Below, in pieces: positions 4,369 to 24,000 of a DNA stretch of 24,000 bases. Position numbers and translations under genes: made by a program. The DNA comes from Methylomonas rhizoryzae (GTDB lineage Bacteria; Pseudomonadota; Gammaproteobacteria; Methylococcales; Methylomonadaceae). The notes beneath the pieces are model-generated. The model was not told where the DNA came from, searched no databases, and saw only the letters and a list, made by a program, of their open reading frames with translations. The DNA is taken from contig NZ_CP043929.1 of the NCBI RefSeq assembly GCF_008632455.1, positions 3,621,774 to 3,645,773 of the forward strand, read 5' to 3'. Every line of letters starts with the position of its first letter. Position 1 is the first letter of the stretch.

Positions 4369-4447
4369 CAAAATTACCGTGATCTATGAATTGAAATTCG
4401 TGCGGAGCCAAGCCTGTCCGGCCGTTTCCCGTACTTCAAGACGCCGA

Positions 4448-4574: not shown

Positions 4575-5321
4575 CTAGAGCGGGCCGCTCGCAGCCTGCG
4601 CAAGTTCGCCGCAACATGCGGCTGCCACGCGGTAAGGTTGTAACGTCTGTCCGAAAAAGCGCAAAAGCTCGGACTCGCAAGCGCGCAAAAAGAAATGGTC
4701 TCCGTCGAACATCTGCAACGAACAGCCGCCGCTGCTCTCTTCGCGCCAAGCCAGTAGCGCTTCCTTACTGATCGCATCGAGGCTGCCGCCCAGAACGTAC
4801 AGCGGCATAGCCAACGGCGGGCGCGTCTTTCTGCGGTAGCCGGCGCACAGCGCGAAATCGGCTTTGAGCACCGGCAACAACAAGGCCATCATCTCGGCGT
4901 TAGCCAGAATTTCGCTGTCTGTACCGTTTAAACGCTGCAACTCCCGGCGCAATTCGTTATCGGTTTGCAAATCGGCGTAACGCTCGGTTCGCCGGCACAG
5001 CGGTGCCTCGGCCGCTGACAATATCAACGCGCATGGCTGCGGCCCGCCGCATTCTTGTAAAACATGGGCCAACTCGAATGCAGCTAACGCGCCCAGGCTG
5101 TGGCCGAATAATGCGAACGGCGCCGAAATTGCCGGTATCAGAGTCGCGGACAGCTCGTCCAGCAAAGCCGGCCATTCGCGCTGCAAGTCTTGCTGCCAGC
5201 GCGCGCCGCGCCCCGGCATTTCCACCGGCACGGCCCGCAACCAGTCCGGCAGGCGCTGTTGCCAGCGCAAGTAAACGGCCGCGCTGGCACCGGCATAAGG
5301 CAGGCAAAAAAGCTGCATCAC
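4575..5321 (-). CDS. Type II thioesterase (NRPS editing thioesterase)
   Basis: 248-aa ORF. N-terminal LFCLPYAGASAAVY, nucleophile elbow GHSLGALAAFE, C-terminal GDHFF, all typical of GrsT/PvdG-type TEII. The first codon is GTG (5321); an ATG follows at 5318. It starts 5 nt after the mbtH-like stop. Confidence 0.9.
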   Translation of the reverse strand: MMQLFCLPYAGASAAVYLRWQQRLPDWLRAVPVEMPGRGARWQQDLQREWPALLDELSATLIPAISAPFALFGHSLGALAAFELAHVLQECGGPQPCALILSAAEAPLCRRTERYADLQTDNELRRELQRLNGTDSEILANAEMMALLLPVLKADFALCAGYRRKTRPPLAMPLYVLGGSLDAISKEALLAWREESSGGCSLQMFDGDHFFLRACESELLRFFGQTLQPYRVAAACCGELAQAASGPL

Positions 5322-5325
5322 CGGC

Positions 5326-5538
5326 TTAGCTCTCCTGACCTTCCATGAACTTGCGCAAGCTTAACGGTCGCATGTCGGTCCAAACCTGTTCGATGTACTC
5401 CAGGCAGTCCTTTTTTAGGCCCGATTTGCCGACCGTGCGCCAACCGTTGGGCACCGGCTTGTAGTCCGGCCATATCGAATATTGTTCTTCATGGTTGACC
5501 ACAACCTGAAACACGGTGTCTTCGCTATCGATGCTCAT
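5326..5538 (-). CDS. MbtH-like protein (adenylation-domain chaperone)
   Basis: 70 aa with the full MbtH signature: [10 protein letters not shown]...PNGW...L...WTDMRP. Confidence 0.95.
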
Positions 5539-5545
5539 AAATTCG

Positions 5546-6517
5546 TCAAATACAAAATTGCTCGAAAAATACTTCCCGCGACAACAGCATCATCGCGGCA
5601 CGTTTATGCGGAAAATCGAATTCCTTCAGCTTGCAAAAGCCGGCTTGCTGCATGTAGCCGATCATCTTGGCGTTGTCGGCGCGCGGCTCGGCCACCACGT
5701 TGCGGGTACGCGGATCGTCCAGAAACATGAAATGCGCCAGAGAAGGCAACCAAGCAGCCACCCGCTGCGGGCCTCGCCAACGCTGTTCGCCGACCAGCAT
5801 GTGCACGCCGCGATCGTAATCGTCCGCCGGGTAGTAAGGCGCGATGCGGTCTTCCTTAGCCCAATAAATCTCGAAATAGCCGAAAGGCTGGCCGTCGAAA
5901 CAACCGAATACCGGCTGCATGTGCGGATCGTTAGTCACTTTGTCCAAGTATTCGCGGTGCATGGCTTGGCTGCCGGCCAATTCCCAAAACGCCGATACTC
6001 TAGGGTCGTTATGCCAAGCGTGGAAGGTATCCAAATCGGCATCCAGATCGACACTGCGAAACGACACCCGCAAGTCCTGCTCAGGCAAATAGCGTCGATA
6101 CAGTTCCCCGGCCGGCAACGGCGGGCGCAGCGGATGGCGCTTGCCGTCGCTGACGACGTAATGCAAAGGGAAAGGTTGTTGACGCAGCTGCGGTAAAAAA
6201 CTGTCGGAGAGTTGCCGCAACATGCTGCGCTTGACGGTGACCAGCTCTTCTTGTGAGCCGGCGATGGCGATTCCGCCGCTGATCAAAGCCGCCGCGATGC
6301 CGCGGGCTTGGATCCGCAACACGACTTCCCTGTTAGCCGGCCGCCGGTCGAACCAGGCTTGCAAGGCCGGCAATAACGCGGCCGGGCTACTGTCGCCGGC
6401 CGCTACAACGACGCTGCCGTCTGCGGTTTCGCACAGACTTGACTGAGGCTGCCGATCGCTATCGGCAGCGTACAAATCGATTTGCAGATTGTCGTAACAG
6501 GTTTGAGAGAGTGTCAT
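5546..6517 (-). CDS. IucB/AlcB-family N-hydroxy-amine acetyltransferase (siderophore hydroxamate formation)
   Basis: 323 aa, about IucB length. Motifs [61 protein letters not shown]. First gene behind a Fur-box promoter. Confidence 0.85.
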
Positions 6518-6660: not shown

Positions 6661-7998
6661 CTATCCGACTTTATATATCTTCGCCGCCAGCCCGGAGGTT
6701 TCCGCTCCGGCATTTTCGGCAGCTTGCCCGCCGACCCAGCGCATCGGCGCCGGAAAAGGATCGACCTTGTAAACCGGCCTATCCAGCAAACTGTTGATGA
6801 TTACCGCGGAACGCCAAGCCGCCAAGCTTAGCTGGGCGTCGGCTACGCCGTGGCTGTTGCGGCCGGCGTTCAGCATGTAGATGCGATGCCGGGCCGGGCC
6901 GTCCCAAGGCAATCGATAGTCCTCGCTCAAACGCGGCAGCCCCTCCCGGTCCAAGTCCAATCGTTCCAGCAACGGGGCAAGACAATCCGGTAATTGGTAG
7001 CGGTAACCGGTCGCCAGCACGATGCGATCGACGGTTACCGACTCGTCGCTGCGATTGAAACCGTTGCGCATATGCAAGTGGTAAGCGCCTTTGTCTCGGC
7101 CGGCCAGATGCACTTCCCGATACGGCAAAATCGCATACGGCGTGGTGTCGCGATTCAAGAAATCGCCGTCGTACAAATATTGCGACAGGACTTGCAAGGT
7201 GGCCGGGGACACGCCGTCGCCGGTCAGCTTGTGCGAGGCGACAATCGGCAACTTGCGCGCTTCCGGCAAGGCATGAAACTGGCGCACGTAGTCCGGGGTG
7301 AAATATTCGTTGGTGAAGGCGGTTTCATCCAACGGTTCCAAATTAGGCCGGCGACTGATCCAGACGATCTCCTCGGCCTTGCCGCGGTTGCCGGCCATCA
7401 AATCCAGAAATATCTCCGCCCCGCTTTGCCCGCCGCCGATAATCGCCACCCGCTTGCCGGCTACCGAAAAGTCCGAACCGACGTATCCGTGACTATGCAG
7501 ACAATACTCGCCGACGTAGCGCTCTATCCAGGTGGGAAGGTGCGGGCGCATGCCGGTCGCTACCGCCAAGTGCCGAGCCGCAAGCTCTTTACCGCTTTCG
7601 CAGCGCAAGCGGAAACCGCCGTCGCTAAACCGGATGTGTTCGATGCCGTCGCCGAATTGCAAGCAGGGCAATTGCTCGGCAGCCCAGCGCAAATAATCGG
7701 CAAATTCCAGCCGCCGCACCCTGGGGTAATCGGCATTGACAAAACGGTAAAACCGGCCTTTTTGTACCAGATAGGCCAAAAAACTATAGGGATTGCTAGG
7801 GTCTATCGGGGTTACCAAGTCTTTTAAATACGAGGTCTGCATTTGCGTACCCGGCAGCATCATGCCGGGATGCCAGTTGAAACGCTCGCGGCGCTCGAAG
7901 AAGCGCGCCCGGCAGTCCGGCACTTTAGCCAGCAAGGCCGCCAAACTGAGATTAAAAGGCCCGACGCCGATACCGGCCAGATCAAGAATGTCGCTCAT
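6661..7998 (-). CDS. Lysine/ornithine (or diamine) N-hydroxylase, flavin-dependent (IucD/PvdA/AlcA family)
   Basis: 445 aa. GIGVGPFNLSLAALL (FAD fold), FNWHPGMMLPGTQMQTSYLKDLVTPIDPSNPYSFLAYL, GGGQSGAE (NADPH fold), LATGY, and C-terminal HGVADAQLSLAAWRSA. By recollection it aligns nearly end-to-end with E. coli IucD. Confidence 0.9.
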   Translation of the reverse strand: MSDILDLAGIGVGPFNLSLAALLAKVPDCRARFFERRERFNWHPGMMLPGTQMQTSYLKDLVTPIDPSNPYSFLAYLVQKGRFYRFVNADYPRVRRLEFADYLRWAAEQLPCLQFGDGIEHIRFSDGGFRLRCESGKELAARHLAVATGMRPHLPTWIERYVGEYCLHSHGYVGSDFSVAGKRVAIIGGGQSGAEIFLDLMAGNRGKAEEIVWISRRPNLEPLDETAFTNEYFTPDYVRQFHALPEARKLPIVASHKLTGDGVSPATLQVLSQYLYDGDFLNRDTTPYAILPYREVHLAGRDKGAYHLHMRNGFNRSDESVTVDRIVLATGYRYQLPDCLAPLLERLDLDREGLPRLSEDYRLPWDGPARHRIYMLNAGRNSHGVADAQLSLAAWRSAVIINSLLDRPVYKVDPFPAPMRWVGGQAAENAGAETSGLAAKIYKVG

Positions 7999-8049: not shown

Positions 8050-10461
8050 TCAGTGCGGCAGCAAGATCGTGCGCCGGACGGCGGCTTGCGCCACCCGCTC
8101 GGCTGAAGTCAACAGGGGAAAACCGGCACCCGTGCGCCAGGCGCCGGTCATGTCCCGGTACTGCGCCGCCAAGGGATTGCCGGATTGGCCGGTACCCAGC
8201 ACAAATAGGGACCTGTCCGGCTCCGCCAAGTCGTAAATAGCCCGAAACGCCGGCCCGGCCTCGCCGACGTAACGTCCCGACGCTTCGTCGTAACGGTAAC
8301 CGCTGACGTTGACGCTATCCATGCCGCCGGGACTGGAGGTTTCGACGTTGAACCAAGCGGACAGCCACGGCAAGCCGCCGAACGCCGCGTGACGAAACAA
8401 ACTGGGATGCGCCTCGCCCCAGCGCCACGCCCGCATATCTTTTCCGAAATGCTCGCGCAGATTGTGCAAAGCCCGTTGCAGCGCGGTCTGCATGGCAGCC
8501 GCGCATGGCACGGTATCATCAGCGGTTTGCGCCGGACACCAGCGCGCGGCGGCGCCGTCCCGGTCGGTCAGGACGCGGGCTAAAAACGGCGGGTTGTAAT
8601 CGCCGACTTGCTCGAACAAATCGCCTAGCGGCTCGCGATACAGCACAGCCGCCAATTGCCGCAACCATTCGGCGAAAATCAAGGGCTGCGGACTGTCTTC
8701 GCGCATGCCGCCGTCCCAAGCCCGCAGCAAAACCAAGGCCTGCTGCGTTTCCAGCGTAGCCGGTGTCGCCAATAGAAAAGGCAACAGTTCAGAGGCAAGC
8801 GGGTTGGCGATGTCCGCCTGTATTGCGGCGAAAGAAGCCGTGTCGTGCCGTTCGGTGGCATCCAGCAAGGCCGAGATGCGCTCGGCCCGATACGGCAAGG
8901 CCCAGTTGGCGGTGATGAAATAGGGATAGTTGGGCGGGGTGATGTCTTGATTGGCAGTGACGATTTTGCCGTCGGCGGCTCCGGTTTGTTGCGGCAAGTC
9001 GTCGAACGGGATCCAGCCTTGCCAATCGTAACGACTATCCCAACCCGGTGCGGGCAGGCGGCCGGACAACACGTTCCGTTGATCGCGCAGCGGCACCCGG
9101 CCGGCGGCGATGAAGCCGATTTGTCCTGCCGCATCCGCATAAACGATGTTTTGCTGCGGCGCGTGAAAGTCGCGGGCCATTTGCCGTAATGCGTCGGCAT
9201 TCGCCGCGGTGCCGGCGTTCAGAATAAAACGGATGGTGCTATCGTCGGCGGCCAAGCCGGACCAGTTCAAAGCAATCGCCAAACCGTCGGACGCCAGCTG
9301 AGCGGCATCCGGGTCGGCATCGGACAACAGCGGCCCGTGACGGCTCAGGCGCACGGTTAAATTTTCCGTTTGTCCGCCCTTAATCCGGATCGTTTCGTCG
9401 ATACGCTCGAACTCGGCCGCACCCTCCGGGGTTCGATAACGCTGCGTTTGACCCGGCAAGGTTTGTTCGAAATATAGGTCCTGGCTATCCGGACCGGTAT
9501 TGGTGAAAGCCCAGGCGACTTGGCGGTTGCGTCCCAGAACGACGCCGGGAATACCGGGCAAGGTCGCGCCGATTGCATCCAAACCCGGCGCGTGCAAATG
9601 CGCGAAATACCACAGCGATGGCGCGGTCAGGGGCAGATGCGGATCGTTGGCCAAAATGGGTTTACCGCTAATCGACCGACTGCCGTCCACGGCCCAGTTG
9701 TTGGAACCGACTGCTTGTTTGGCCGGCAAGCGGCCAAATGCCAGCAAGCGTTCGGTCAGGCTATGCGTTGCCGCCGCATTCCCCGGATATTCGGGCAACC
9801 CGGCCACGGATGCGTACGGGTAACCTGGAAACAAATCGGCGATGTGCTTAGGCGGCAAGCGTTGCTGCAATTTGAAATTCAGCAACTCCTCCCACCAATT
9901 GCCGGACAGATTCCAGGCCAGGGTTTTCAACCAGACCAAGGAATCCTGCGGCTGCCACCGCTCCGGACCAGCGCCGAGCAGGTAGTATTCGACCGGCAAC
10001 CAATGCGCCTGGTCCAGATAGGCGTTGACCCCGTCGGCATACGCCTGCAGCGCCGTGCGCGTGGCTTGATCCAACTGTTGCCAATTGGCCTGCGCCGCAC
10101 GCTGCAAGCCCAACACCCGGAAAAACCTATCCTGCGGCAAAGCCTGTTCGCCGAGCAGTTCCGCTAACCGGCCGGAGCCGGCCCGCCGGTTCAAATCCAT
10201 TTGCCACAAGCGCTCCTGCGCGTGCAGATAGCCCAAGGTCAAATAGGCGTCGGTTATGCTAGCCGCGTACACGTGCGGCACGCCGTAACGATCGGTGACT
10301 ATTTCCACCGTGTCGCTCAAGCCCGCCGCCGACAACTTTTCCGGCCCTTGATCCAATCCGATGAACAAGCCGCCGCCGATAGCCAAGCACAAAACCAGAC
10401 TCAGCGACAAGCCAAGCGGCAGCGCCCGGATATTTACAACGCAATGTGCGGCTGTCGGCAT
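8050..10461 (-). CDS. Penicillin-acylase family (S45) Ntn hydrolase, PvdQ/QuiP-like acyl-siderophore or acyl-HSL acylase
   Basis: 825-aa ORF in the track. VEIVTDRYGVPHVYA, LGYLHAQERLWQMD, and the autoprocessing/nucleophile site G|SNNWAV (Ser codon 9703-9705) followed by ANDPHL. N-terminal hydrophobic segment LPLGLSLSLVLCLAIGGGLFIGL (signal or anchor). The track start at 10527 is GTG and overlaps the upstream gene by 41 nt. I prefer the ATG at 10461. Confidence 0.88.
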   Translation of the reverse strand: MPTAAHCVVNIRALPLGLSLSLVLCLAIGGGLFIGLDQGPEKLSAAGLSDTVEIVTDRYGVPHVYAASITDAYLTLGYLHAQERLWQMDLNRRAGSGRLAELLGEQALPQDRFFRVLGLQRAAQANWQQLDQATRTALQAYADGVNAYLDQAHWLPVEYYLLGAGPERWQPQDSLVWLKTLAWNLSGNWWEELLNFKLQQRLPPKHIADLFPGYPYASVAGLPEYPGNAAATHSLTERLLAFGRLPAKQAVGSNNWAVDGSRSISGKPILANDPHLPLTAPSLWYFAHLHAPGLDAIGATLPGIPGVVLGRNRQVAWAFTNTGPDSQDLYFEQTLPGQTQRYRTPEGAAEFERIDETIRIKGGQTENLTVRLSRHGPLLSDADPDAAQLASDGLAIALNWSGLAADDSTIRFILNAGTAANADALRQMARDFHAPQQNIVYADAAGQIGFIAAGRVPLRDQRNVLSGRLPAPGWDSRYDWQGWIPFDDLPQQTGAADGKIVTANQDITPPNYPYFITANWALPYRAERISALLDATERHDTASFAAIQADIANPLASELLPFLLATPATLETQQALVLLRAWDGGMREDSPQPLIFAEWLRQLAAVLYREPLGDLFEQVGDYNPPFLARVLTDRDGAAARWCPAQTADDTVPCAAAMQTALQRALHNLREHFGKDMRAWRWGEAHPSLFRHAAFGGLPWLSAWFNVETSSPGGMDSVNVSGYRYDEASGRYVGEAGPAFRAIYDLAEPDRSLFVLGTGQSGNPLAAQYRDMTGAWRTGAGFPLLTSAERVAQAAVRRTILLPH

Positions 10462-10486: not shown

Positions 10487-11257
10487 TCAAACGCGGATAA
10501 GGTCTCGGGATTTGGGTCGATTAACACCCAACACGCCGAATAAAGCCGTTAAAAACAACCAAACGGCACCCGGCAACGGCACGGCAACCGGAGTTTCGGC
10601 ATAGGGCGCGCCTTGCGCTACCCCGGCAATGTCGAAAGCAACCTGGGCGATGCGCGAACCCGCGGCAGCGGATAAATCGAATAAGTAGGCGCTATCGTCG
10701 GGGGCAAAAGTTAAATCCCAAATCAGTAGCGATTGATACACCGCATATTCGACCGAGTCCATGACCACGGTATTGCCGGTGTCGGTCAATGCCACATAGT
10801 CCGCACTCAAGCCGTTCAGCCAAATGTTGTCGTAATCGACGCCGTCGCCGTCCAACGTTACCCAAGCTTCCAACTGCATGGCAACCCGGGTGACTTGATC
10901 TACGGCTTGCGCGGCGTATCCGGAAATATCCGCGTAGGCGAATATCGACTCGCCGTCGTTGGCCAGATTGCCGTAAGCGTCGATTGCGGTGCCGTCCCAG
11001 CTATTCCAGCCGAAGCTGGCACCGCTTAGCCCGTAGCTTCCGGCCAACAACTGGCCGTCCGCGTTGAAGGTATCCCATTCGGCATAAACCGTCCCCGCGT
11101 CACCGCGGCTCCAGCCTCCCCAAACCGCTTGCTGCGGCTTGTCGAACCCGTAGCCTGCCTGGTAAGGATCCATGCCGTTGGCGATATCCGCCACCGCGGG
11201 TAGTGCCTGCGTCAACAATCCTGCCGCCAACACGATTGCAAAAGAATGATGTTTCAT
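10487..11257 (-). CDS. Secreted acidic protein of unknown function with a VPLPA/PEP-CTERM-type C-terminal sorting signal
   Basis: 256 aa. Signal peptide MKHHSFAIVLAAGLLTQALPAVA|DI. C-terminus VPLPGAVWLFLTALFGVLGV-NRPKSR, i.e. motif, TM helix, basic cluster (exosortase-substrate architecture). The body is D/G/W/Y/A-rich with no Cys. I recognise no family. Confidence 0.75.
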   Translation of the reverse strand: MKHHSFAIVLAAGLLTQALPAVADIANGMDPYQAGYGFDKPQQAVWGGWSRGDAGTVYAEWDTFNADGQLLAGSYGLSGASFGWNSWDGTAIDAYGNLANDGESIFAYADISGYAAQAVDQVTRVAMQLEAWVTLDGDGVDYDNIWLNGLSADYVALTDTGNTVVMDSVEYAVYQSLLIWDLTFAPDDSAYLFDLSAAAGSRIAQVAFDIAGVAQGAPYAETPVAVPLPGAVWLFLTALFGVLGVNRPKSRDLIRV

Positions 11258-11289: not shown

Positions 11290-11316
11290 GCAGCCGGCTT
11301 TACCTCAGCCGGCTGC
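11290..11316 (-). other. Perfect 10-bp intercistronic hairpin between the P-domain gene and the CTERM-protein gene
   Basis: gcagccggct (11290-11299), ttacctc loop, agccggctgc (11307-11316). In the sense (minus) RNA it sits 22 nt after the stop codon and has no U-tract after it. The T-run is on the plus-strand side only. Confidence 0.5.
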
Positions 11317-11338: not shown

Positions 11339-12256
11339 CTATTGCAGTGAGCAGGACTGATCGTCATCCGCGGTAATTTCCAGACTCCAGCCACCCTTGA
11401 TCTCGCCGGCGAACCAATAGAAATCGTCGACCACGTACAACTTCCATTGGCCGGACGGATCCGCACCGTTAAAGGTGGCGAGTTTCGGACCGTTGGTGAC
11501 GATTTTGTAAGTGCTTTCGTCGCCGGGGGTCGGAGTGGTCAACACCGTGGTAGGGGTCAGTGCAATCGAGGTTTCCGGATCCTGCAGTTCCACGGGGGCC
11601 GGTGCCGGGAAATGGTCGGTATCGGGATTGTTGTCGTAATCGCTGGGTTTGTAGGTACGCAATGCGGTATCGGTCCATACGTCCACCCACTCTTCGTAGA
11701 TGACGTTGTAAAGCGCATTGGTGGTTCTATTGCTCAAGCGACCATTGTTGCGAGTAGTACGCGGCAACGGCAAGGTTGCGGAATCGTCGAATTTCCAATT
11801 CAGGTTTTCCGCGACGATGCCCAACACCCCACCCTCAGGGGTCGCACCGGCCGAACTGACGTTAGACGCCAGCATCACGTATTGGCCGTTCGGCCCCACC
11901 AACAGCATGTCGACGTCGTTTAAATAGTCGTGATACAAGCCTTTGATGGTTACGTTGACGTCCTTAATTTTCGCGCCTTTCGGGAACGCGCTTTTCGGAA
12001 CGTTAATCATCGAAGGATAGGTTTTGGCTGCTTTTACCGGAACCGCCGGCGCACCTTCCGCAGTGTATGTCTCCAACAGCGCGGCGCACTCCGGCAACTC
12101 CGGATCGGCGCAGGTGTCTTGAATCACGATCGGGCGCGGATTGGCGAAGGTTCTGGTAACCGCATCGGCATTGACCGAAGCGACGGGCAAGCCCGCCAGC
12201 AGCGCTACCGCAGCGGCTAACGGCTTGGCTTGAACACGTGACAAAGTATGCTTCAT
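11339..12256 (-). CDS. Secreted stand-alone proprotein-convertase P-domain-like protein (no protease domain)
   Basis: 305 aa. Signal peptide MKHTLSRVQAKPLAAAVALLAGLPVASVNA|DA. First P-domain half: IKDVNVTIKGLYHDYLNDVDMLLVGPNGQYVML...NLNWKFDDSA. Second half: FNGADPSGQWKLYVVDDFYWFAGEIKGGWSLEI. The halves are separated by roughly 80-100 extra residues. First gene behind a Fur-box promoter. Confidence 0.75.
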   Translation of the reverse strand: MKHTLSRVQAKPLAAAVALLAGLPVASVNADAVTRTFANPRPIVIQDTCADPELPECAALLETYTAEGAPAVPVKAAKTYPSMINVPKSAFPKGAKIKDVNVTIKGLYHDYLNDVDMLLVGPNGQYVMLASNVSSAGATPEGGVLGIVAENLNWKFDDSATLPLPRTTRNNGRLSNRTTNALYNVIYEEWVDVWTDTALRTYKPSDYDNNPDTDHFPAPAPVELQDPETSIALTPTTVLTTPTPGDESTYKIVTNGPKLATFNGADPSGQWKLYVVDDFYWFAGEIKGGWSLEITADDDQSCSLQ

Positions 12257-12350: not shown

Positions 12351-12395
12351 AATGAGAACGATTATCATTTTGTTAAACAAACACAGACTTGTCAA
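12351..12395 (-). promoter_or_regulatory. Sigma70-type promoter with Fur box (P-domain/CTERM/acylase/hydroxylase operon)
   Basis: The minus strand reads TTGACA (12395-12390), a 17-nt spacer, then CAAAAT (12372-12367). It is immediately overlapped by the Fur-like box aaatgataatcgttctcatt (12370-12351). It lies about 95 nt upstream of ATG 12256. Confidence 0.68.
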
Positions 12396-12905: not shown

Positions 12906-12941
12906 TTGCTTTTTTTAATTGAGAATGATTATCATTTGAAA
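12906..12941 (+). promoter_or_regulatory. Fur box with candidate promoter for the small-ORF/ABC-exporter unit
   Basis: gagaatgattatcatt (12921-12936) matches GATAATGATAATCATT at 14 of 16 positions. Possible -35 ttgctt (12906-12911) and -10 tatcat (12930-12935) with an 18-nt spacer. It lies 33 nt upstream of ATG 12969. Confidence 0.68.
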
Positions 12942-12968: not shown

Positions 12969-13181
12969 ATGAAAATGTTTTCATCACTTTTTAAAGCACC
13001 CGCCACGGTAAAACTGGAAATCGAGCCGCGCTACTTGGCCGTACTGATTGCAAACGGCCAACTGCATGCTACCGATTTCCGCTGTCTGGACCTAAATTCC
13101 AAGCAAATCGTTTGGAAACTGCTGCTGACGCTTGCCAAGGCTAAGCTGAACGGCAACGACAGACTCGCGGAAAGCGGCTAG
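12969..13181 (+). CDS. Small hypothetical protein (70 aa)
   Basis: The track ORF 12906..13181 starts at TTG inside the Fur box. The first ATG is 12969 (MKMFSSLFKAPATVKLEIEPRYLAVLIANGQLHATDFRCLDLNSK...). Third-position GC is about 60% by my count, above the local average. The SD is weak. No family recognised. Confidence 0.5.
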   Translation: MKMFSSLFKAPATVKLEIEPRYLAVLIANGQLHATDFRCLDLNSKQIVWKLLLTLAKAKLNGNDRLAESG

Positions 13182-13228
13182 ACAGCGGCCCGATCAAACG
13201 CGTCCATCCATATCCCGGAGATTAATCC

Positions 13229-13450
13229 ATGTCGAAAAAACCTTGTACTCACGAATACTTAGCCACTAACGAGAGCGGTAAAGTATTGATTTGCCGCGAA
13301 TGCGGAGTAGTTCATCTGCATCTGCACAATATGTCCTTGCGCCTGGACGAACAGCAATTCGCCAGTTTTGCCGCGTTGATGAATCAAGCGGCGCGCAACG
13401 TCGCCGACAACGCCATGGCTAAACGCCCCAGCCTGACTTTAGTGCATTAA
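13229..13450 (+). CDS. Small hypothetical protein (73 aa) with a C-x-H...C-x-x-C zinc-ribbon-like N-terminus
   Basis: GGAG lies 8 nt upstream of the ATG. Sequence MSKKPCTHEYLATNESGKVLICRECGVVHLHLHNMSLRLDEQQFASFAAL... The stop is 8 nt before the exporter ATG, so the two are probably co-translated. Third-position GC is about 59%. Confidence 0.62.
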   Translation: MSKKPCTHEYLATNESGKVLICRECGVVHLHLHNMSLRLDEQQFASFAALMNQAARNVADNAMAKRPSLTLVH

Positions 13451-13458
13451 TTCAGATT

Positions 13459-15126
13459 ATGACGCTGCTGCGTTTATTGTTTAACCGCTTCAAAACCACT
13501 TTATTACTGGCGATTCTGTTAAGCCTGGCCAGTGCCGGGCTTTCGGTGGCGGTTATCGCGTTCAGCAACGAACGCTTGCTACAAACAACGGGTGACTTGC
13601 AAACCACGCTATTACAGTTTTCTGGCTTGCTGGCAGCTGTTTTGATCATTGGCACCGCCTCGCAAATCTGCATGACCAAACTTGGCCATCGCTTGGTGTA
13701 CGAAATGCGCCGCACCATGGTCAAGCGTATTTTGGATACGGAATTGCAGCGCCTGGAGTGGCTAGGCCCCGCCCGCTTGTTAGCCAGCTTGAACGGCGAT
13801 ACCAACCGCTTGACCTCCGCCTTTATCGGCCTACCTTCGGCACTGTACGGTTTGGCGCTGAATCTGGGCAGTTTTGCTTACCTGGCCTGGCTATCGCCGC
13901 GGCTATTCGCCGCAGTAGCCGGCTGGATGGCTGTCGGCGTGGCGATAGCCTGGTTGCTGCTTAACCGCACCCATCAACACATAGCGGCGGCCCGCTACGT
14001 CGAAGACCTGTTATACGAGGACTATCAAGCCGCACTCTACGGCCGCAAGGAATTGGCCTTAAACCGCGACCGGGCAAAACGCTTCTATAACGACGAATTC
14101 GAAACCAACGCCCAAACCAGCCGCAACTGCGAAATTCGGGCGGACATTTACAACGCGTGCAACGAAAACTGGGCCAACGCCATGATATTAGGTGCCATAG
14201 GCTTGGTATTTTATTTGGTCAACGCCCTGGCCTGGGAAACATCCGCCGTTGCCACCACCTACGCCGTGACGATTTTATTCTTGCGCACGCCCTTGACCGG
14301 TTTGATCGCCGCCATTCCCGGCTTAATCGGCGGCAGCGTGGCGCTGGCGAAATTGGACAGCCTGGAACTCCCCTGCTACAACCCTAAGTTTTCCGTTGCG
14401 CAAACCGCCGCAACCGCAACGTGGCGGACGCTGACGTTAAAAAACGTCGAATACCGCTACCCCGCTCTTGAAAACGGCAACCCGTTTTCGGTGGGGCCTA
14501 TCGACTTCGAACTGCGGCGCGGTGAACTCGTGTTTCTGATCGGCGGCAACGGTAGCGGAAAAACCACGTTCAGCCGCTTGCTGACCGGACTGTACCGTCC
14601 GCAAAACGGGCAATTGCTGCTAGACGGCCACCCGCTGACCGAAGCCCATCGTCCCGCTTACCGCAGTCTGTTCTCCAGCGTGTTTTCCGACTTTTATTTG
14701 TTTTCGCGCTTGCTGGGCCCGAATGGAGCCGATGCCGATCCGGAGCAAATCCGTTTTTGGCTAAACCAATTCGGTTTGGCGGACAAGGTAACCGTTGAAG
14801 ACAGTAAACTATCGGATACTAACTTGTCGCAAGGCCAACGCAAGCGTTTGGCGCTGATAGCCGCACTATTGGAAGACCGGCCCGTGTTGGTGTTGGACGA
14901 ATGGGCGGCCGATCAAGACCCGGAATATAGGCGCCGCTTTTACAGCGAGTGGTTGCCGCTATTGAAAGCCAGCGGTAAAACCGTGCTTGCCATTACCCAC
15001 GACGAACATTATTTTTCCGTCGCCGACCGCATTGTGAAAATGGACGAAGGCCGCATCCACGCGCTAGAGACACGGCAGGGCCCGGTTTTTCCGGTTAGTC
15101 GATATTCGGTTTCGGATTGGCCGTAA
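13459..15126 (+). CDS. Cyclic-peptide/siderophore ABC exporter, fused TMD-NBD half-transporter (PvdE/SyrD family)
   Basis: 555 aa. N-terminal TM domain. Walker A GGNGSGKTT (nt 14542-14568), signature LSQGQRKRLAL, and Walker B VLVLDEWAADQDPEYRR. The DEWAADQDP form is characteristic of the PvdE/SyrD cyclic-peptide transporter family. Confidence 0.9.
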   Translation: MTLLRLLFNRFKTTLLLAILLSLASAGLSVAVIAFSNERLLQTTGDLQTTLLQFSGLLAAVLIIGTASQICMTKLGHRLVYEMRRTMVKRILDTELQRLEWLGPARLLASLNGDTNRLTSAFIGLPSALYGLALNLGSFAYLAWLSPRLFAAVAGWMAVGVAIAWLLLNRTHQHIAAARYVEDLLYEDYQAALYGRKELALNRDRAKRFYNDEFETNAQTSRNCEIRADIYNACNENWANAMILGAIGLVFYLVNALAWETSAVATTYAVTILFLRTPLTGLIAAIPGLIGGSVALAKLDSLELPCYNPKFSVAQTAATATWRTLTLKNVEYRYPALENGNPFSVGPIDFELRRGELVFLIGGNGSGKTTFSRLLTGLYRPQNGQLLLDGHPLTEAHRPAYRSLFSSVFSDFYLFSRLLGPNGADADPEQIRFWLNQFGLADKVTVEDSKLSDTNLSQGQRKRLALIAALLEDRPVLVLDEWAADQDPEYRRRFYSEWLPLLKASGKTVLAITHDEHYFSVADRIVKMDEGRIHALETRQGPVFPVSRYSVSDWP

Positions 15127-16407: not shown

Positions 16408-17583
16408 TCAGGAGCGGCGCGTTGCCGATCTCCCGCTCTTATGCCACCATATCCTGAAACCGGTCACGACCAGCACGGCAATGGCCAAGCCCAGCACGGA
16501 TACCGCCACGCGCCCCGGTAAGCCGGCTATCCGCCCGCTGTGCAAGGGCAATTGCCAAGCGTCGAAAATGTCGGCGGCCGTACCTTGGCCCGGCAAATAG
16601 TCGTCCAAGTATGCGGCAGTTTGGCCGTCGTAATACAGATAATCCGCCCCTAAGCCGTCGGCATCGCCGTATCCGACCCCGAAAATGCCGTATTGGGCGT
16701 TATAAAACACGCTGGAGCGCTGCTTGGTCCAGTGCCGCGCGTCGGCCTCTATTTGCGCCCGATCCAAGACCATGACGAAAGATACCGCAGCTTCGACCGG
16801 CTCCGCCTCGGCCCGGTCGTCGCGCGCATCGAACGGGCTAGGGGTAAAATCGCTAAACAGGCCGACTAGCGGCTCGAACAAGGCATCCCGCAAATTCAGC
16901 GAAATCGCCGAAACCGACAGGATCAGCAAAAACCCGGAAAGCCATAAGCCGCCGGCCCTATGTAGATCGAAATTCAAGCGTTTGCCTCGTGCGCCGGGTT
17001 TAATCCGCCAAGCGGTGCGCCAAGATTGCCGGCTGGCCCCGGCCTCCCGGCGGACTAGCGCTAAGGCCGTTTGCGGTAAGCTCAGATAAAAACCGATCAG
17101 GGTTTCCAGCAGCACGATCACCGCTACTATACCCATCACCCACAAGCCGATCTCGCCCGGCAATTGCAAGCTGTAGTGCAGCACGTAAACGCATGGGATC
17201 AGCTGCTTGCGTTCCAAGCCGCACGCCCCCCATATTCGCCCGCCCAACACTTTGCCGTCTACCGGATCGACGAACACCTCGTCATACGCCGCCGGCATGT
17301 CGGCTTGCGTAGGCCTCAGGGTAATTTTCGCCGCGCGGCCGGCGACGCGTTGCAGTGGTAACGACACCACACGGTATTCGGGTAGCTCGCGCTGCAAGGC
17401 GGACAGCAGTTGCGCGTCGGTTAGCGCCGCGCCCTGAGCGGAGCTATAAAACAGCTCGGGGTTCAGCCACGCGTCCAATTCCTGCTGGTAGGCGATGATG
17501 CACCCGGTCAAACTGGCTTGCAACAAAAACAAGGCGGCGGTCAAGCCAAGATAGCGGTGTAAGCGCGCCCAAAGCTTTCGCAT
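16408..17583 (-). CDS. PepSY-associated TM-helix protein (PiuB/FoxB-like putative ferric-siderophore reductase)
   Basis: 391 aa. N-terminal RLHRYLGLTAALFLLQASLTG. Three further His-containing TM motifs: VLHYSLQLPG, FDLHRAGGLW, LPLHSGRIAGLPGR. C-terminal TGFRIWWHK. It starts 16 nt after the receptor stop. Confidence 0.85.
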   Translation of the reverse strand: MRKLWARLHRYLGLTAALFLLQASLTGCIIAYQQELDAWLNPELFYSSAQGAALTDAQLLSALQRELPEYRVVSLPLQRVAGRAAKITLRPTQADMPAAYDEVFVDPVDGKVLGGRIWGACGLERKQLIPCVYVLHYSLQLPGEIGLWVMGIVAVIVLLETLIGFYLSLPQTALALVRREAGASRQSWRTAWRIKPGARGKRLNFDLHRAGGLWLSGFLLILSVSAISLNLRDALFEPLVGLFSDFTPSPFDARDDRAEAEPVEAAVSFVMVLDRAQIEADARHWTKQRSSVFYNAQYGIFGVGYGDADGLGADYLYYDGQTAAYLDDYLPGQGTAADIFDAWQLPLHSGRIAGLPGRVAVSVLGLAIAVLVVTGFRIWWHKSGRSATRRS

Positions 17584-17598
17584 GGCGGGACTTCGCGC

Positions 17599-19914
17599 CT
17601 ACCAGTTGTAGCGCAAACTGGCCAGTACGGTGCGGCGGTTGCCGTAAAAACAATTACCGCCGTAACAGGTAGTGAAATACTCGTGATCGAGCAGATTGGC
17701 CATATTCACCCCTAAACGCAAGCCGTTCAATTTGCTGTGCAACTTGCCTAATTCATAGTGCACGGCCGCATCCACCACCACGTAAGACGGCGTTTTCAAA
17801 CTGTTGGCCAAATCGCCGTAGTTGCCGCCCGCGTAACGCAACCCACCGCCCAAACCCAAGCCTGCGAAATCGCCTTGCCGTTGCGTGTAATCGAGCCATA
17901 ACCCGGCTTGATGCTCCGGTGTATAAGTCAAATTGTTGCCTAATTCGGAGGCAATCGTGGATTTGGTTACTTTGGTATCGGTATAGGTATAGGATGCGGC
18001 TACGTCCAAACCGACATCCAGACTGGCCTTGCCCTCCAATTCCGCCCCTTGCGAACGCACCTCGCCGGTTTGAATGTTATAACCTACATGCGAAGGCTCA
18101 GGATCGGCGGTTAACACATTTTGCTGGACTAAATGAAACAGCGCTGCCGTAAATAAGGCGTTATATCCGACCGGTTGATACTTGACGCCGAATTCATGCT
18201 GTTGCCCCGTTGTGGGTTTGAAAGCCTTGCCGAAAAAATCGCTATCGGCAATCGGATCGAACGATTCCGAATAACTGTAGTAAGGCACGACGCCCGCGTC
18301 GAACTGGTAGCCCAGTCCGGTCCGGTAGGTGAAGGCTTCGTCGTCGCGCGACGGATCGATCAGGCCATCGTTACCGGTTTGGGTGGTCGCCCAATCGTGG
18401 CGAATACCGATAGTCGCAATCCAACGATTCCATTTAAGCTGGTCTTGTGCGTACAGCCCGACTTGGTCCAGTTGCTGACTTCTGGATGAGTCCAACACGG
18501 GTTCCTGAAACGCATTGCCGTAGGTCGGGTTATAAACATCCAACACCAGTTCGGGCAATTCAAAATCGGTAAAGCCTTGCTTTCTATCGCCGGTAAAATG
18601 CCTGAAATCCAAACCGACCAAGCCTACGTGTTCAACATCGCCGGTGGCAAAATCGGCTTGTAACTGATTATCCAGCGTAAAAGTATGGGTCTGGTCCTTG
18701 TAGCGCGCGCCGTACCGGTTAATCTTGGTCATTTGCGCATCCACGAAGCTAAGGCCGGGAATAAGCTCGCCCTTGTCGGCATCAAAGCCGTAGTAATAAT
18801 CCGGGAAAATACCGCGGTAATCGCTGCTGACATTGGCGTAACGCACATTCTGCCGCGCCGTGAAAATGTGGTTGAAGCGATGATCCAACCCATAGCCCAC
18901 CGCAAACTGCTCGCGTTCATAACCGTCGAATCCGGGCTCACCCAGAAAGCGGTTGCTCGGAATGCGGCCGTTGGGGTTGGCCAACACCGTGCCTTCATAG
19001 GGCAAAAACTGCATCGCGTTGCCGGTTTCGTCTTTTTGATAGTGGCTCAAAAAGGTAAAACTGGTCGCGTCGCTCGGCTTCCAGGTAAAACTGGGCGCGA
19101 CGTAGTAACGGTTGTCTTCCACGAAATCGACCTGGGTATCGGCGTTGCGGCCCATCGCTACCAAGCGGTAAAACAAATCGTTTCGGCTCGCCACCGGCCC
19201 GCTTAAATCCAGGCTGCCTTGCACCCTGTCGTAACTGCCGCCCAGAAACTGGATTTCATGAAACGGGGTTTCGGTAGGCCGTTTGCTCATCATATTGACC
19301 AAGCCGCCCGGCGGATTTTGCCCGTACAACACCGAAGACGGTCCGCGCAGGATTTCGATCCGCTCCAAGCCGTAAGGATCGACCCGCAATTGCGCATACG
19401 AAGAACTGGAACTCATCAAGCGGGTACCGTCCAGGTACTGGGTACCTTCGAAACCGCGCAGAATAAAATAGTCGTCGCGGGTACTAGGGCCGAAAAGCCC
19501 CGTCACCACGCCGGGCGTATAAGCCACCGCCTCGCTAACGCTTTGCGCCGCGCGGGCAACGAATTCGTCCCTGTTGACCGCGCTAATCGACTGCGGCACT
19601 TCGATCAGCGGCGTATCGGTTTTAGAACCCGACGCCGATTGTTCCACGACATAACCTTTTACCGGTGCCGCCGCGCTGCCGGCGTTTTCACCGACCACCG
19701 CCACCTCGGGCAAGGTTTGCGCGCTGCCAACTGCAAGCTCGCGGCGTTTATCGGTTTGCGACTTGGCCGGCCGGGCATTGTTATCAGCCGCCGTTTGCTC
19801 TTGAGCGCTTAATTCCAGCGGCGCGAGCACCAATGCCAACGCGATGGCCGCCGCTTTACCAAAACCTGACCGGACACGAGTCCGCGCTCGCGCATGTACC
19901 ATTCGTTTAGTCAT
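17599..19914 (-). CDS. TonB-dependent siderophore outer-membrane receptor
   Basis: Signal peptide ...AAAIALALVLAPLELSA|QEQ. Plug start LPEVAVVGE...KTDTPLIEVPQSISAV, then IEILRGPSSVLYG. Terminal beta-strand ...VLASLRYNW ends in an aromatic residue. No roughly 80-aa N-terminal signalling extension. The track start 19941 is TTG. The ATG at 19914 has an AGGTGA SD 5 nt upstream. Confidence 0.92.
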   Translation of the reverse strand: MTKRMVHARARTRVRSGFGKAAAIALALVLAPLELSAQEQTAADNNARPAKSQTDKRRELAVGSAQTLPEVAVVGENAGSAAAPVKGYVVEQSASGSKTDTPLIEVPQSISAVNRDEFVARAAQSVSEAVAYTPGVVTGLFGPSTRDDYFILRGFEGTQYLDGTRLMSSSSSYAQLRVDPYGLERIEILRGPSSVLYGQNPPGGLVNMMSKRPTETPFHEIQFLGGSYDRVQGSLDLSGPVASRNDLFYRLVAMGRNADTQVDFVEDNRYYVAPSFTWKPSDATSFTFLSHYQKDETGNAMQFLPYEGTVLANPNGRIPSNRFLGEPGFDGYEREQFAVGYGLDHRFNHIFTARQNVRYANVSSDYRGIFPDYYYGFDADKGELIPGLSFVDAQMTKINRYGARYKDQTHTFTLDNQLQADFATGDVEHVGLVGLDFRHFTGDRKQGFTDFELPELVLDVYNPTYGNAFQEPVLDSSRSQQLDQVGLYAQDQLKWNRWIATIGIRHDWATTQTGNDGLIDPSRDDEAFTYRTGLGYQFDAGVVPYYSYSESFDPIADSDFFGKAFKPTTGQQHEFGVKYQPVGYNALFTAALFHLVQQNVLTADPEPSHVGYNIQTGEVRSQGAELEGKASLDVGLDVAASYTYTDTKVTKSTIASELGNNLTYTPEHQAGLWLDYTQRQGDFAGLGLGGGLRYAGGNYGDLANSLKTPSYVVVDAAVHYELGKLHSKLNGLRLGVNMANLLDHEYFTTCYGGNCFYGNRRTVLASLRYNW

Positions 19915-19944
19915 TGCTTCACCTGCAAATTTGAGTTGCAAGCG

Positions 19945-22446: not shown

Positions 22447-24000
<1,554 letters not shown>

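What the first reader, a model, noticed from the sequence alone, without database searches (positions are those of the whole stretch)
11339..12256. Orphan, insertion-bearing P-domain protein as the first gene of a Fur-repressed siderophore operon
P-domains normally follow the catalytic domain of kexin/furin-type or bacterial subtilisin-like proteases. Here a signal peptide leads directly into a P-domain-like jelly-roll with no protease domain. Its two conserved halves (IKDVNVTIKGLYHDYLNDVDMLLVGPNGQYVML and FNGADPSGQWKLYVVDDFYWFAGEIKGGWSLEI) are split by an unusually long, Thr/Pro/Asp-rich insert. It occupies the promoter-proximal position of the operon that also encodes the acylase and the N-hydroxylase, behind a near-consensus -35 and a Fur box. 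I know of no described role for a stand-alone P-domain protein in siderophore maturation, capture or uptake.
Basis: partly seen in the sequence, partly recalled or inferred. Interest (0 to 1): 0.78.

Follow-up and report, generated by a model that had tools for sequence, protein, structure and literature searches.

The report
Secreted P-domain protein tied to siderophore clusters
A small secreted protein built on the "P-domain" fold known from furin-type proteases, but with no protease attached, is always encoded inside iron-scavenging (siderophore) gene clusters of methane- and ammonia-oxidising bacteria, so it is probably an undescribed helper of iron uptake whose exact job is still unknown.

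Summary
Window 11339-12256 (-) encodes a 305-aa protein. It has a Sec-type signal peptide, a Pfam P_proprotein domain above threshold, and no protease domain. It lies behind a TTGACA-17-CAAAAT promoter overlapped by a 15/19 Fur box.

The window is Methylomonas (the acylase is 100% identical to that of strain HYX-M1). The cluster encodes a PvdL-like, fatty-acyl-primed NRPS siderophore pathway with acylase, ornithine N-hydroxylase, acetyltransferase, TauD, exporter, FhuA/FoxA-like receptor and PepSY_TM.

- The "insert" is two insertions of about 30 aa each, flanking a canonical strand. The first is as conserved as the core, and both are confidently folded.
- P-domains without proteases are common in bacteria.
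- A hairpin or terminator follows the gene in most orthologous loci, so it is often its own transcription unit.

About 50 clusters at 90% identity make up the family (Methylococcales, Nitrosomonas MAGs, some unnamed MAGs). Every locus with enough flank sits in an NRPS-hydroxamate cluster. None of 74 control loci with generic P-domain proteins does. The gene's position inside the cluster varies.

Best reading: a non-catalytic, extracytoplasmic binding accessory of the siderophore system. I favour the uptake side over acylase-linked maturation. The function is inferred, not shown. Interest is moderate.

The parts
11339..12256 (-). P-domain protein gene (305 aa plus stop)
   Evidence: ORF; PF01483 at 31.4 bits, GA 21; family alignment A1; AF2 pLDDT 86; Foldseek top hits are P-domains of ASP, Kex2 and furin.
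12167..12256 (-). Sec-type signal peptide (res 1-30, predicted cleavage after VNA)
   Evidence: Read from the sequence; pLDDT below 50 for residues 1-27; this region is variable across the family.
12029..12166 (-). N-terminal extension (res 31-76): first strand, then a helix carrying invariant C49 and C57
   Evidence: Alignment A1; strands 32-39 and 43-45 and helix 55-65 in the model; absent from the aligned part of minimal relatives.
11762..12028 (-). P-domain core, first half (res 77-165; IKDVNVTIKGLYHDYLNDVDMLLVGPNGQ...NWKFDDSATLPLP)
   Evidence: phmmer stretches 77-168 match P-domain repeats of thousands of proteins; BLASTP to P0083 and P0054.
11663..11761 (-). Insert A (res 166-198; GRLS...LYNVIYEEWVDVWTD), family-specific and as conserved as the core
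   Evidence: Gapped in P0083 and P0054; conservation 0.72; strands 171-173 and 186-191, pLDDT 93-97.
11594..11662 (-). Retained canonical segment (res 199-221; RTYKPSDYDNNPDTDHFPAPAP) with invariant D206, D208, D212
   Evidence: Aligns to TYRP...FPAPAP of minimal relatives; invariant columns.
11492..11593 (-). Insert B (res 222-255), variable in length and sequence, Thr/Pro-rich
   Evidence: Gapped in relatives; conservation 0.42, 9 Thr and 4 Pro in 34 residues; still pLDDT 85-93.
11369..11491 (-). P-domain core, second half (res 256-296; LATFNGADPSGQWKLYVVDDFYWFAGEIKGGWSLEITA)
   Evidence: phmmer stretches 256-296; Pfam best stretch 237-293 to profile 30-85.
12367..12395 (-). Sigma-70-type promoter: TTGACA, 17 nt, CAAAAT
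   Evidence: 10 of 12 matches; sequence.
12354..12372 (-). Fur box CAAAATGATAATCGTTCTC (15/19 to consensus) overlapping the -10
   Evidence: Equivalent boxes lie 103-188 nt upstream of orthologues in Methylomonas, Methylomagnum, Methylovulum, Methylocucumis and Ca. Methylomicrobium oryzae.
11290..11316 (-). GC-rich hairpin (10-bp stem) directly after the stop codon, with no U-tract
   Evidence: Fold -24.3 kcal/mol, z = -2.2. Analogous hairpins or terminators follow the gene in most orthologous loci.
10487..11257 (-). Next gene: VPLPA-CTERM (variant PEP-CTERM) surface protein, 256 aa
   Evidence: C-terminal VPLPGAVWLF...RPKSR; homologues named VPLPA-CTERM by NCBI, only 8 clusters; weak XDP1 C-terminal match.
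8050..10461 (-). Ntn-hydrolase acylase (penicillin amidase family), 803 aa with an N-terminal membrane anchor
   Evidence: PF01804 at 738.7 bits; 100% identical to Methylomonas sp. HYX-M1 protein P0252.
6661..7998 (-). Lys/Orn N-monooxygenase
   Evidence: PF13434 at 352.8 bits.
5546..6517 (-). N-hydroxy-amine acyltransferase (Acetyltransf_8)
   Evidence: PF13523 at 201 bits.
5326..5538 (-). MbtH-like protein
   Evidence: ORF and sequence; PF03621 at the same position in L001.
4575..5321 (-). Type II thioesterase
   Evidence: PF00975 at 151.5 bits.
3361..4371 (-). TauD-family dioxygenase (probable Asp beta-hydroxylase)
   Evidence: PF02668 at 164 bits. The role is inferred from known beta-hydroxyaspartate siderophore clusters.
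1..3352 (-). Start of the NRPS: fatty-acyl-AMP-ligase-like A domain, T, C (runs off the window)
   Evidence: Pfam AMP-binding, PP-binding, Condensation; NCBIfam PRK05691 (NRPS/PKS; PvdL family to my knowledge) 789 bits and FAAL models 350-405 bits.
12921..12939 (-). Second Fur box, serving the divergent + strand unit
12969..15126 (+). Divergent unit: two small ORFs (12969-13181; 13229-13450, DUF6686) and a cyclic-peptide-type ABC exporter (13459-15126)
   Evidence: (TIGR01194 at 423 bits); conserved in loci L001-L004, L010, L011, L024, L025.
16408..19941 (-). FhuA/FoxA-like TonB-dependent receptor (17599-19941) and PepSY_TM protein (16408-17583)

Best explanation
The gene encodes a secreted (periplasmic or extracellular), non-catalytic protein.

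**What it is.** It is a P-domain beta-sandwich. Three family-specific additions decorate the core: an N-terminal disulfide-bearing extension, a conserved aromatic/acidic insert A, and a variable insert B.

**System it belongs to.** It is a dedicated, Fur-controlled accessory of a lipopeptide hydroxamate/beta-hydroxyaspartate siderophore system. That system has a PvdL-like fatty-acyl starter, a periplasmic Ntn acylase, an ABC exporter, a FhuA/FoxA-like receptor and a PepSY_TM reductase.

**Proposed mode of action.** The most likely mode of action is binding, not catalysis. The protein would hold the siderophore or its ferric complex outside the cytoplasm. I favour the uptake side, meaning hand-over at or after the TonB-dependent receptor in a system that encodes no periplasmic binding protein.

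**Shown versus inferred.**
- Shown: the fold and domain, the secretion signal, the conserved cysteines, the Fur box and promoter, the strict genomic linkage, and the separate transcription signals.
- Inferred: the cellular location beyond export, the absence of catalysis, the ligand, and the step at which it acts.
For: **Domain and fold.** PF01483 scores above threshold. Foldseek top hits are all P-domains of kexin-like proteases, probability 0.98-0.99. The model is confident, including the insertions.

**Export.** There is a signal peptide. C49 and C57 are invariant. The mature protein is acidic, pI 4.2-4.8 across the family.

**No enzyme signature.** The only Pfam hit is the P-domain. There is no NCBIfam hit. 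The invariant polar residues mostly coincide with canonical P-domain motifs shared with relatives from unrelated contexts.

**Linkage.**
- All 25 family loci of at least 5 kb lie in NRPS/hydroxamate clusters, in about 8 different gene orders and in two proteobacterial classes.
- 0 of 74 control loci with P-domain proteins at 33% identity or less (47 of them at least 5 kb long) have any cluster-gene homologue.

**Regulation.** The Fur box overlaps the -10 here and recurs upstream of orthologues. A hairpin or terminator follows the gene in most lineages. That suits a protein needed in different, probably higher, amounts than the enzymes.

**Uptake-side hints.**
- The gene is directly upstream of, or next to, the TonB receptor in Nitrosomonas (L013-L017), Methylocucumis (L020, L021) and the L007/L008/L028/L029 subclade.
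- The window's cluster has a receptor plus PepSY_TM but no periplasmic binding protein.
- A P-domain protein lies next to a TonB receptor among iron-responsive genes in Vibrio parahaemolyticus (PMC12341060).
- P-domain proteins rise 16-29-fold under iron starvation in Aeromonas hydrophila (PMC4957856).
Against: - No direct evidence of binding, location or iron-responsive expression exists.
- In Methylomonas, Methylomicrobium and Methylovulum the gene abuts the acylase, not the receptor.
- In the L007/L008 subclade a protein labelled XusB-like is already present beside the receptor. A surface capture role would be partly redundant there. That label was not reproduced by hmmscan.
- An orthologous-type cluster in Pseudomonas akapageensis (acylase 49% identical) shows no P-domain gene in view, and no Pseudomonas member was found in the protein searches. 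The protein is therefore not essential to this pathway type.
- The protein is strongly acidic, which is not obviously suited to an anionic ferric complex.
Confidence: 0.5

Rival explanations
1. Maturation-side helper. The protein would work in the periplasm with the membrane-anchored acylase on the N-acylated precursor. It could present or shield the lipid tail, or prevent premature export, much like the non-catalytic helper PvdM in pyoverdine maturation.
For: - The gene is immediately upstream of the acylase, or separated by one gene, in Methylomonas, Methylomicrobium, Methylovulum, L025 and L008.
- An acylase is present in every cluster that is fully in view, including Methylomagnum on the same replicon.
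- The NRPS starts with a FAAL-like domain, so a lipidated intermediate exists.
- Invariant aromatic motifs (DDFYWF; YxEWVxVW) could bind a hydrophobic tail.
Against: - Position is not conserved relative to the acylase. It is on the opposite strand in Nitrosomonas and 47 kb away in Methylomagnum.
- A close acylase orthologue in a Pseudomonas cluster has no P-domain partner.
- Characterised lipopeptide-siderophore acylases work alone in vitro: PdnM is 'essential and sufficient' (PMC13592322).
- The hairpin or terminator between the two genes argues against tight co-expression.
Confidence: 0.22
2. Cell-surface or matrix factor. The protein would be secreted and bind a cell-envelope polymer or mineral surface. 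It might act together with the exosortase-sorted VPLPA-CTERM neighbour, keeping the siderophore or iron source close to the cell.
For: - The P-domain fold belongs to the galactose-binding-like beta-sandwich class, which is often used for glycan binding (own knowledge).
- A VPLPA-CTERM surface protein follows it in Methylomonas and L027.
- Some distant P-domain proteins themselves carry PEP-CTERM (P0080, P0084, P0098).
- One paralogue has an extra N-terminal secreted-type domain.
Against: - The VPLPA partner is absent from most lineages.
- The protein has no sorting signal of its own.
- No glycan-binding family was hit.
Confidence: 0.1
3. Iron-regulated passenger. The gene would be a Fur-controlled secreted protein with a role in iron stress unrelated to this siderophore, for example metal buffering or Ca2+/metal binding. 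It would travel with the cluster only by co-transfer.
For: - It has its own promoter, Fur box and terminator.
- Its position within clusters varies.
- It sits near metal-homeostasis genes in Methylolobus and M. album (P-type ATPases, HMA, Feo).
- It is acidic, with a DxDxxxDxD motif.
Against: Linkage to NRPS-hydroxamate clusters survives many rearrangements and inter-class transfer. No family member was seen outside such a cluster. That is hard to explain without a functional tie.
Confidence: 0.1

Closest known systems
P-domains of kexin-like serine proteases (Aeromonas sobria ASP 3wqb/3hjr, yeast Kex2 2id4, human furin 1p8j)
   Same: Same Pfam domain (PF01483). These are also the best structural matches, with Foldseek probability 0.98-0.99. 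The canonical motifs H..D.D, FDD, G.W.L.V.DD and GW.L.I are retained.
   Different: There is no subtilisin catalytic domain to pack against. Three family-specific additions total about 110 residues. Foldseek E-values are only 6e-3 and TM 0.25-0.30. No PDB relative is detectable by sequence.
Bacterial protease-less P-domain proteins ('subtilisin-like proprotein convertase family protein', 'P/Homo B domain-containing protein'), e.g. P0083 (242 aa) and P0054 (two P-domains plus Big_5)
   Same: About 30% identity across the core, including the YRP..FPAPAP segment. They are secreted and lack any protease domain.
   Different: They lack insert A, insert B and the Cys-bearing extension. They are not in siderophore clusters. 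Their functions are also unknown.
Non-catalytic periplasmic helpers of pyoverdine maturation (PvdM, PvdO) in Pseudomonas
   Same: Works-like analogy only. They are exported proteins without catalytic activity of their own, encoded in an iron-regulated cluster whose precursor is fatty-acylated by a PvdL-type starter and deacylated by an Ntn acylase (own knowledge; cluster parallels).
   Different: The folds are unrelated (dipeptidase-like and FGE-like). There is no sequence or structural similarity, and this siderophore has no chromophore-forming step.
Extracytoplasmic siderophore-binding proteins (FhuD/FpvC-type periplasmic binding proteins; XusB surface lipoprotein)
   Same: Works-like analogy. 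They are soluble or surface proteins encoded beside a TonB-dependent receptor that hold the ferric siderophore.
   Different: There is no homology: no Peripla_BP_2 or XusB hit. There is no lipobox. Binding has not been shown.
Iron-starvation-induced P-domain proteins of Aeromonas hydrophila (A0KIU6/R4VT74) and the P-domain gene next to a TonB receptor in Vibrio parahaemolyticus (VP_RS22175)
   Same: These are P-domain proteins that respond to iron limitation. One is adjacent to a TonB-dependent receptor (PMC4957856; PMC12341060).
   Different: The Aeromonas proteins are about 88 kDa multi-domain proteins regarded as proteases. The Vibrio gene is linked to a haem/transferrin-type receptor, not to siderophore synthesis.

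Membership tests
Pfam PF01483 (proprotein convertase P-domain) | HMM score at or above the curated gathering threshold | tested here: met
   31.4 bits against 21, E=2e-7, two stretches. The precomputed PF01483 label is present on most family members.
Pfam PF01483 (proprotein convertase P-domain) | Beta-sandwich fold superimposable on solved P-domains | tested here: inconclusive
Kexin/furin-type proprotein convertases (peptidase S8B) | Subtilisin-like catalytic domain N-terminal to the P-domain | tested here: not met
   There is no Peptidase_S8 hit. Only 46 residues lie between the signal peptide and the P-domain core.
Fur regulon | Fur-box match positioned over the promoter | tested here: met
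   15/19 match overlapping the -10. The motif is 200-fold enriched over shuffles. It is conserved upstream of orthologues.
Fur regulon | Iron- and Fur-dependent transcription | not testable with these tools
   No expression data were found for this gene.
PvdL/PvdQ-type acylated-precursor siderophore pathways (cluster level) | FAAL-type starter module on the first NRPS | tested here: met
   A-T-C order. PRK05691 scores 789 bits. FAAL models score 350-405 bits, below their full-length cut-offs because this is a domain of a larger protein.
PvdL/PvdQ-type acylated-precursor siderophore pathways (cluster level) | Ntn-hydrolase acylase and cyclic-peptide-type ABC exporter in the cluster | tested here: met
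   PF01804 at 738.7 bits. TIGR01194 at 423 bits against a cut-off of 286. The acylase is not a PvdQ equivalog: NF051460 scores 70 bits against 950.
PvdL/PvdQ-type acylated-precursor siderophore pathways (cluster level) | The P-domain protein is a recognised component of such pathways | tested here: not met
   No paper links a P-domain protein to siderophore synthesis or uptake. A related Pseudomonas cluster lacks it.
Periplasmic siderophore-binding proteins (class III PBP) | Sequence membership (Peripla_BP_2 or related) | tested here: not met
   No such hit in Pfam or NCBIfam.
PEP-CTERM / exosortase substrates | C-terminal PEP-CTERM-type sorting signal | tested here: not met
   The protein ends ...EITADDDQSCSLQ with no TM helix. 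The neighbouring gene does carry VPLPA-CTERM.

The most novel reading that the evidence does not exclude
The family would be a new class of extracytoplasmic siderophore-handling protein. A P-domain scaffold would have been rebuilt, by a conserved aromatic/acidic insertion and a disulfide-bearing extension, into a receptor for a lipopeptide siderophore or its ferric complex. The protein would act as a relay between the TonB-dependent receptor and the PepSY_TM reductase, or as a carrier of the acylated precursor. It would have spread with the cluster between methane and ammonia oxidisers.
Probability: 0.3. Interest if true: 0.7.

Novelty: new variant of a known kind. Interest (0 to 1): 0.5.

Why it matters
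Iron acquisition in methanotrophs and ammonia oxidisers is poorly characterised (stated for methanotrophs in PMC13274454). Both groups have very high metal demands.

This family is small, highly constrained and strictly cluster-linked, and its members carry no functional annotation. That makes it a concrete, testable candidate for a missing extracytoplasmic step. The step could be hand-over of the ferric siderophore in receptor-plus-PepSY_TM systems that lack a binding protein, or handling of the lipidated precursor.

It would also give the widespread protease-less bacterial P-domains their first defined physiological context. If the protein proves dispensable, the finding reduces to one more conserved hypothetical gene in a biosynthetic cluster.

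Tried and rejected
- **PDB by sequence profile.** No relative was found; the best hit had E=0.27.
- **Model coordinates.** None are returned, so I could not map invariant residues onto the surface or test for a pocket or a Ca2+ site.
- **Expression or localisation evidence.** The M. album BG8 S-layer proteome does not list the protein, the stored supplement is truncated, and the cultures were not iron-limited. The Methylomonas DH-1 RegA/iron paper does not cover this cluster. The methanotroph secondary-metabolite and lanthanome papers do not mention it.
- **Common origin of the two kinds of neighbour.** I compared the VPLPA-CTERM protein with the roughly 235-aa 8-Cys protein. Identity is only 21-22% in a forced alignment, so I rejected the idea.
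- **Structure of the VPLPA-CTERM neighbour.** pLDDT is 62 and Foldseek hits are non-specific beta-sandwiches, so it is uninformative.
- **Rosetta-stone fusion.** Paralogue P0035 has an extra N-terminal domain of about 155 aa, but it matches no family.
- **Acylase-obligate partner idea.** This was weakened by the Pseudomonas cluster without the gene and by the published self-sufficiency of siderophore acylases.
- **Rfam.** Nothing was found in the long intergenic region; the only hits in the window are rRNA.
- **Mirror-tree co-evolution.** I considered it but did not run it. The usable loci fall into two tight groups, so it would have no power.
Full report
**1. What is in the sequence**

Window 11339-12256 on the minus strand is a 305-codon ORF with an ATG start and an AGGGA ribosome-binding site.

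Pfam reports one family only. P_proprotein (PF01483) scores E=2e-7 and 31.4 bits against a gathering score of 21, in two stretches. NCBIfam reports nothing. No subtilisin domain is present.

The N-terminus has the charge, hydrophobic and small-residue layout of a Sec signal peptide. It has no lipobox and no twin arginine.

The gene is real:
- Homologues reach E=1.7e-197, and about 50 clusters at 90% identity align full length.
- An AlphaFold2 model built on 37 of them has mean pLDDT 86 and pTM 0.83. Only residues 1-27 are disordered.

**2. Anatomy of the protein**

An exhaustive HMMER search of 1.84 billion representatives gave 3997 hits at E<=1e-3. Only two representatives were full-length relatives. 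All the others match the query in two separate stretches, roughly 77-168 and 256-296.

Pairwise alignments with minimal relatives (P0083, 242 aa; P0054) show what lies between those stretches:
- a family-specific insert A (residues 166-198);
- a retained canonical segment, YKPSDYDNNPDTDHFPAPAP, equivalent to TYRP...FPAPAP in the relatives;
- a second insert B (residues 222-255).

Insert A is as conserved as the core, with top-residue frequency 0.72 against 0.70-0.76. It contains invariant Y187, E189, W190 and W194. Insert B is the variable, Thr/Pro-rich part, at 0.42. Both are predicted with high confidence and contain strands and a helix. So the "linker-like insert" is really two structured elaborations.

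A third addition is the N-terminal extension (residues 31-76), which has two invariant cysteines. The mature proteins are acidic, with pI 4.2-4.8.

The invariant D206, D208 and D212 form a DxDxxxD pattern that looks like a calcium loop. That is my inference and was not tested.

Foldseek against the PDB returns only P-domain-bearing proteases at the top: Aeromonas sobria ASP, Kex2 and furin, with probability 0.98-0.99. E-values are modest (6e-3) and TM-scores low, because both sides carry large unshared parts. A profile search of PDB sequences finds nothing.

**3. Surroundings**

The window is from Methylomonas. The acylase is 100% identical to that of strain HYX-M1.

On the same strand, downstream of the P-domain gene, lie:
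- a VPLPA-CTERM surface protein;
- a penicillin-amidase-family acylase;
- a Lys/Orn N-monooxygenase, an Acetyltransf_8 acyltransferase, a thioesterase and a TauD dioxygenase;
- MbtH;
- an NRPS that begins A-T-C. Its A domain matches fatty-acyl-AMP ligases and aligns over 590 residues to NCBIfam PRK05691, an NRPS/PKS model that to my knowledge represents the PvdL family.

Divergently transcribed are two small conserved ORFs and a cyclic-peptide-type ABC exporter. Further on are a FhuA/FoxA-like TonB-dependent receptor and a PepSY_TM protein.

The logic therefore parallels pyoverdine. A fatty-acylated peptide is made, exported to the periplasm and deacylated. Here the iron ligands are hydroxamate and probably beta-hydroxyaspartate. 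The product structure is inferred.

**4. Regulation**

A TTGACA-17-CAAAAT promoter is overlapped by CAAAATGATAATCGTTCTC, which matches the Fur consensus at 15 of 19 positions.

The core AATGATAATCNTTCTC occurs twice in the window against 0.01 expected. Both copies lie in this divergent intergenic region, one facing each transcription unit.

Fur boxes occur 103-188 nt upstream of the orthologues in Methylomonas, Methylomagnum, Methylovulum, Methylocucumis and Ca. Methylomicrobium oryzae. I found none by this criterion in the Nitrosomonas loci or the unnamed MAG loci.

A 10-bp GC-rich hairpin follows the stop codon. Hairpins follow the gene in most orthologous loci, and in L012, L016 and L025 they are clear intrinsic terminators with T-runs. 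The gene is thus promoter-proximal here but is commonly a separate or attenuated unit. That arrangement is typical of a protein needed at a different level from the enzymes downstream (inference).

**5. Linkage across genomes**

Family members with named sources come from:
- Methylomonas, Methylomicrobium, Methylosarcina, Methylovulum, Methylocucumis, Methylomagnum and Methylolobus;
- Nitrosomonas MAGs;
- a divergent subclade from MAGs labelled only Pseudomonadota.

In all 25 loci of at least 5 kb the gene lies in an NRPS-hydroxamate cluster. The gene order differs between lineages:
- before the acylase in Methylomonas, Methylomicrobium and Methylovulum;
- before the TonB receptor and opposite the exporter-acylase-hydroxylase unit in Nitrosomonas;
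- between the biosynthetic genes and the receptor in Methylocucumis;
- after receptor, a putative XusB-like protein and an 8-Cys protein in L007, L028 and L029;
- at the far end of the cluster after an RND pump in Methylomagnum, 47 kb from the acylase.

As a control I examined 74 loci encoding generic P-domain proteins at 33% identity or less, 47 of them at least 5 kb long. None contains a homologue of any cluster gene. Two inspected in detail lie in unrelated contexts. The family loci are not all independent, so I count about eight independent arrangements rather than rely on the Fisher p-value.

Conversely, a Pseudomonas akapageensis cluster of the same type has no P-domain gene in view. Its acylase is 49% identical, and it has the same TauD, hydroxylase, GNAT and A-T-C NRPS start. 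No Pseudomonas member appeared in the protein search either. The protein is therefore an accessory, not a universal requirement.

**6. How it most likely works**

The fold class, the lack of any enzyme signature, the secretion signal, the conserved disulfide and the separate expression signals all point to an extracytoplasmic binding protein.

Two placements are plausible.

*Uptake side (favoured).*
- The gene is adjacent to the receptor in several divergent lineages.
- This cluster pairs a receptor with a PepSY_TM reductase but encodes no periplasmic binding protein.
- P-domain proteins elsewhere appear in iron-starvation responses, one of them beside a TonB receptor (PMC4957856, PMC12341060).

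*Maturation side.* This rests on adjacency to the acylase in the Methylococcaceae and on the conserved aromatic motifs. It is weakened by:
- the variable position of the gene;
- the Pseudomonas cluster that lacks it;
- published evidence that a siderophore acylase is sufficient on its own (PMC13592322).

A surface or matrix role with the VPLPA-CTERM neighbour, and a passenger role, remain possible. None of these has been tested experimentally.

**7. Comparison with what is known, and novelty**

It is a member of the P-domain family by HMM. It is not a proprotein convertase.

Protease-less P-domains are common in bacteria and already carry database labels such as "P/Homo B domain-containing protein". 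The architecture alone is therefore not new.

What appears undescribed is this subfamily, with its conserved insertions and its strict, Fur-associated residence in siderophore clusters of methane and ammonia oxidisers. Eight literature searches found nothing on it. I classify it as a new variant of a known kind.

**8. Verdict**

The linkage and regulation claims hold. The rarity premise, the nature of the insert and the operon statement need correction.
- Interest is moderate (0.5). It is a well-defined, testable candidate for a new accessory step in siderophore handling, but at present it is a conserved hypothetical protein with an inferred role.

Noticed in passing
window 10487-11257 (-): A VPLPA-CTERM (variant PEP-CTERM) 256-aa protein lies directly after the P-domain gene. 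It belongs to a tiny family of 8 clusters. It is also found next to a P-domain homologue in metagenome locus L027 (45% identity). The model is a beta-sandwich with a C-terminal TM helix at low confidence (pLDDT 62).
   Followed up: partly
window 11290-11316 (-); also L001 ~10944-10966, L003 ~11010-11043, L012, L013-L017, L025: A GC-rich hairpin sits immediately after the P-domain stop codon. It is conserved as a structure, not as a sequence, across lineages. In several loci it is a full intrinsic terminator with a T-run.
   Followed up: yes
window 12969-13181 (+) and 13229-13450 (+): Two small conserved ORFs precede the ABC exporter. The second matches DUF6686 at 29 bits and has a CxxC-type motif. 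They have their own Fur box at 12921-12939 and are conserved in Methylococcaceae loci but not detected in Nitrosomonas loci.
   Followed up: partly
window 12400-12900: An AT-rich stretch of about 500 bp (GC 0.47) with no convincing gene and no Rfam match lies between the two Fur-controlled promoters.
   Followed up: partly
L007 9202-9921, L008 9232-9927, L026 589-1287, L028 9109-9894, L029 4790-5512: A second uncharacterised family lies adjacent to the P-domain gene in the divergent MAG subclade. Its members are secreted proteins of about 235 aa with eight conserved cysteines and no Pfam match.
   Followed up: partly
L028 4823-7348, L029 59-2395: The TonB-dependent receptors next to the P-domain gene carry an N-terminal TonB_C-like domain.
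   Followed up: no
L007 7428-8822, L008 4172-5620, L028 7386-8795: The precomputed annotation calls these proteins XusB (PF14298). hmmscan against the local Pfam copy finds no family for them. The discrepancy is unresolved.
   Followed up: partly
protein P0035 (same 23.7-kb contig as P0031): Two paralogues of the family lie on one contig. One has an extra N-terminal domain of about 155 aa that matches no Pfam or NCBIfam family.
   Followed up: partly
L001 15604-15628, L011 14699-14723, L012 10326-10350: Additional Fur boxes lie between the N-hydroxylase and acyltransferase genes in other strains. They are absent at the equivalent place in this window.
   Followed up: no
L003/L004 15110-16209: In Methylomicrobium album and M. 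agile the cluster carries a cupredoxin-like gene and a DUF6607 gene. It also has formyltransferase and deacetylase-family genes in place of the acetyltransferase. FeoAB and P-type ATPase genes lie upstream.
   Followed up: no
window 22088-22203 (-) and 22448-24000 (-); 20136-21734 (+): 5S rRNA and the 3' part of 23S rRNA lie at the right end of the window. A TPR protein with a C-terminal 2OG-Fe(II) oxygenase domain lies between them and the receptor.
   Followed up: no
L105 (Pseudomonas akapageensis VXCP01000011.1): A related lipopeptide-siderophore cluster has two ABC transporter genes and no P-domain, PepSY_TM or small ORFs in view. It is a useful natural comparison for what the P-domain protein adds.
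   Followed up: partly
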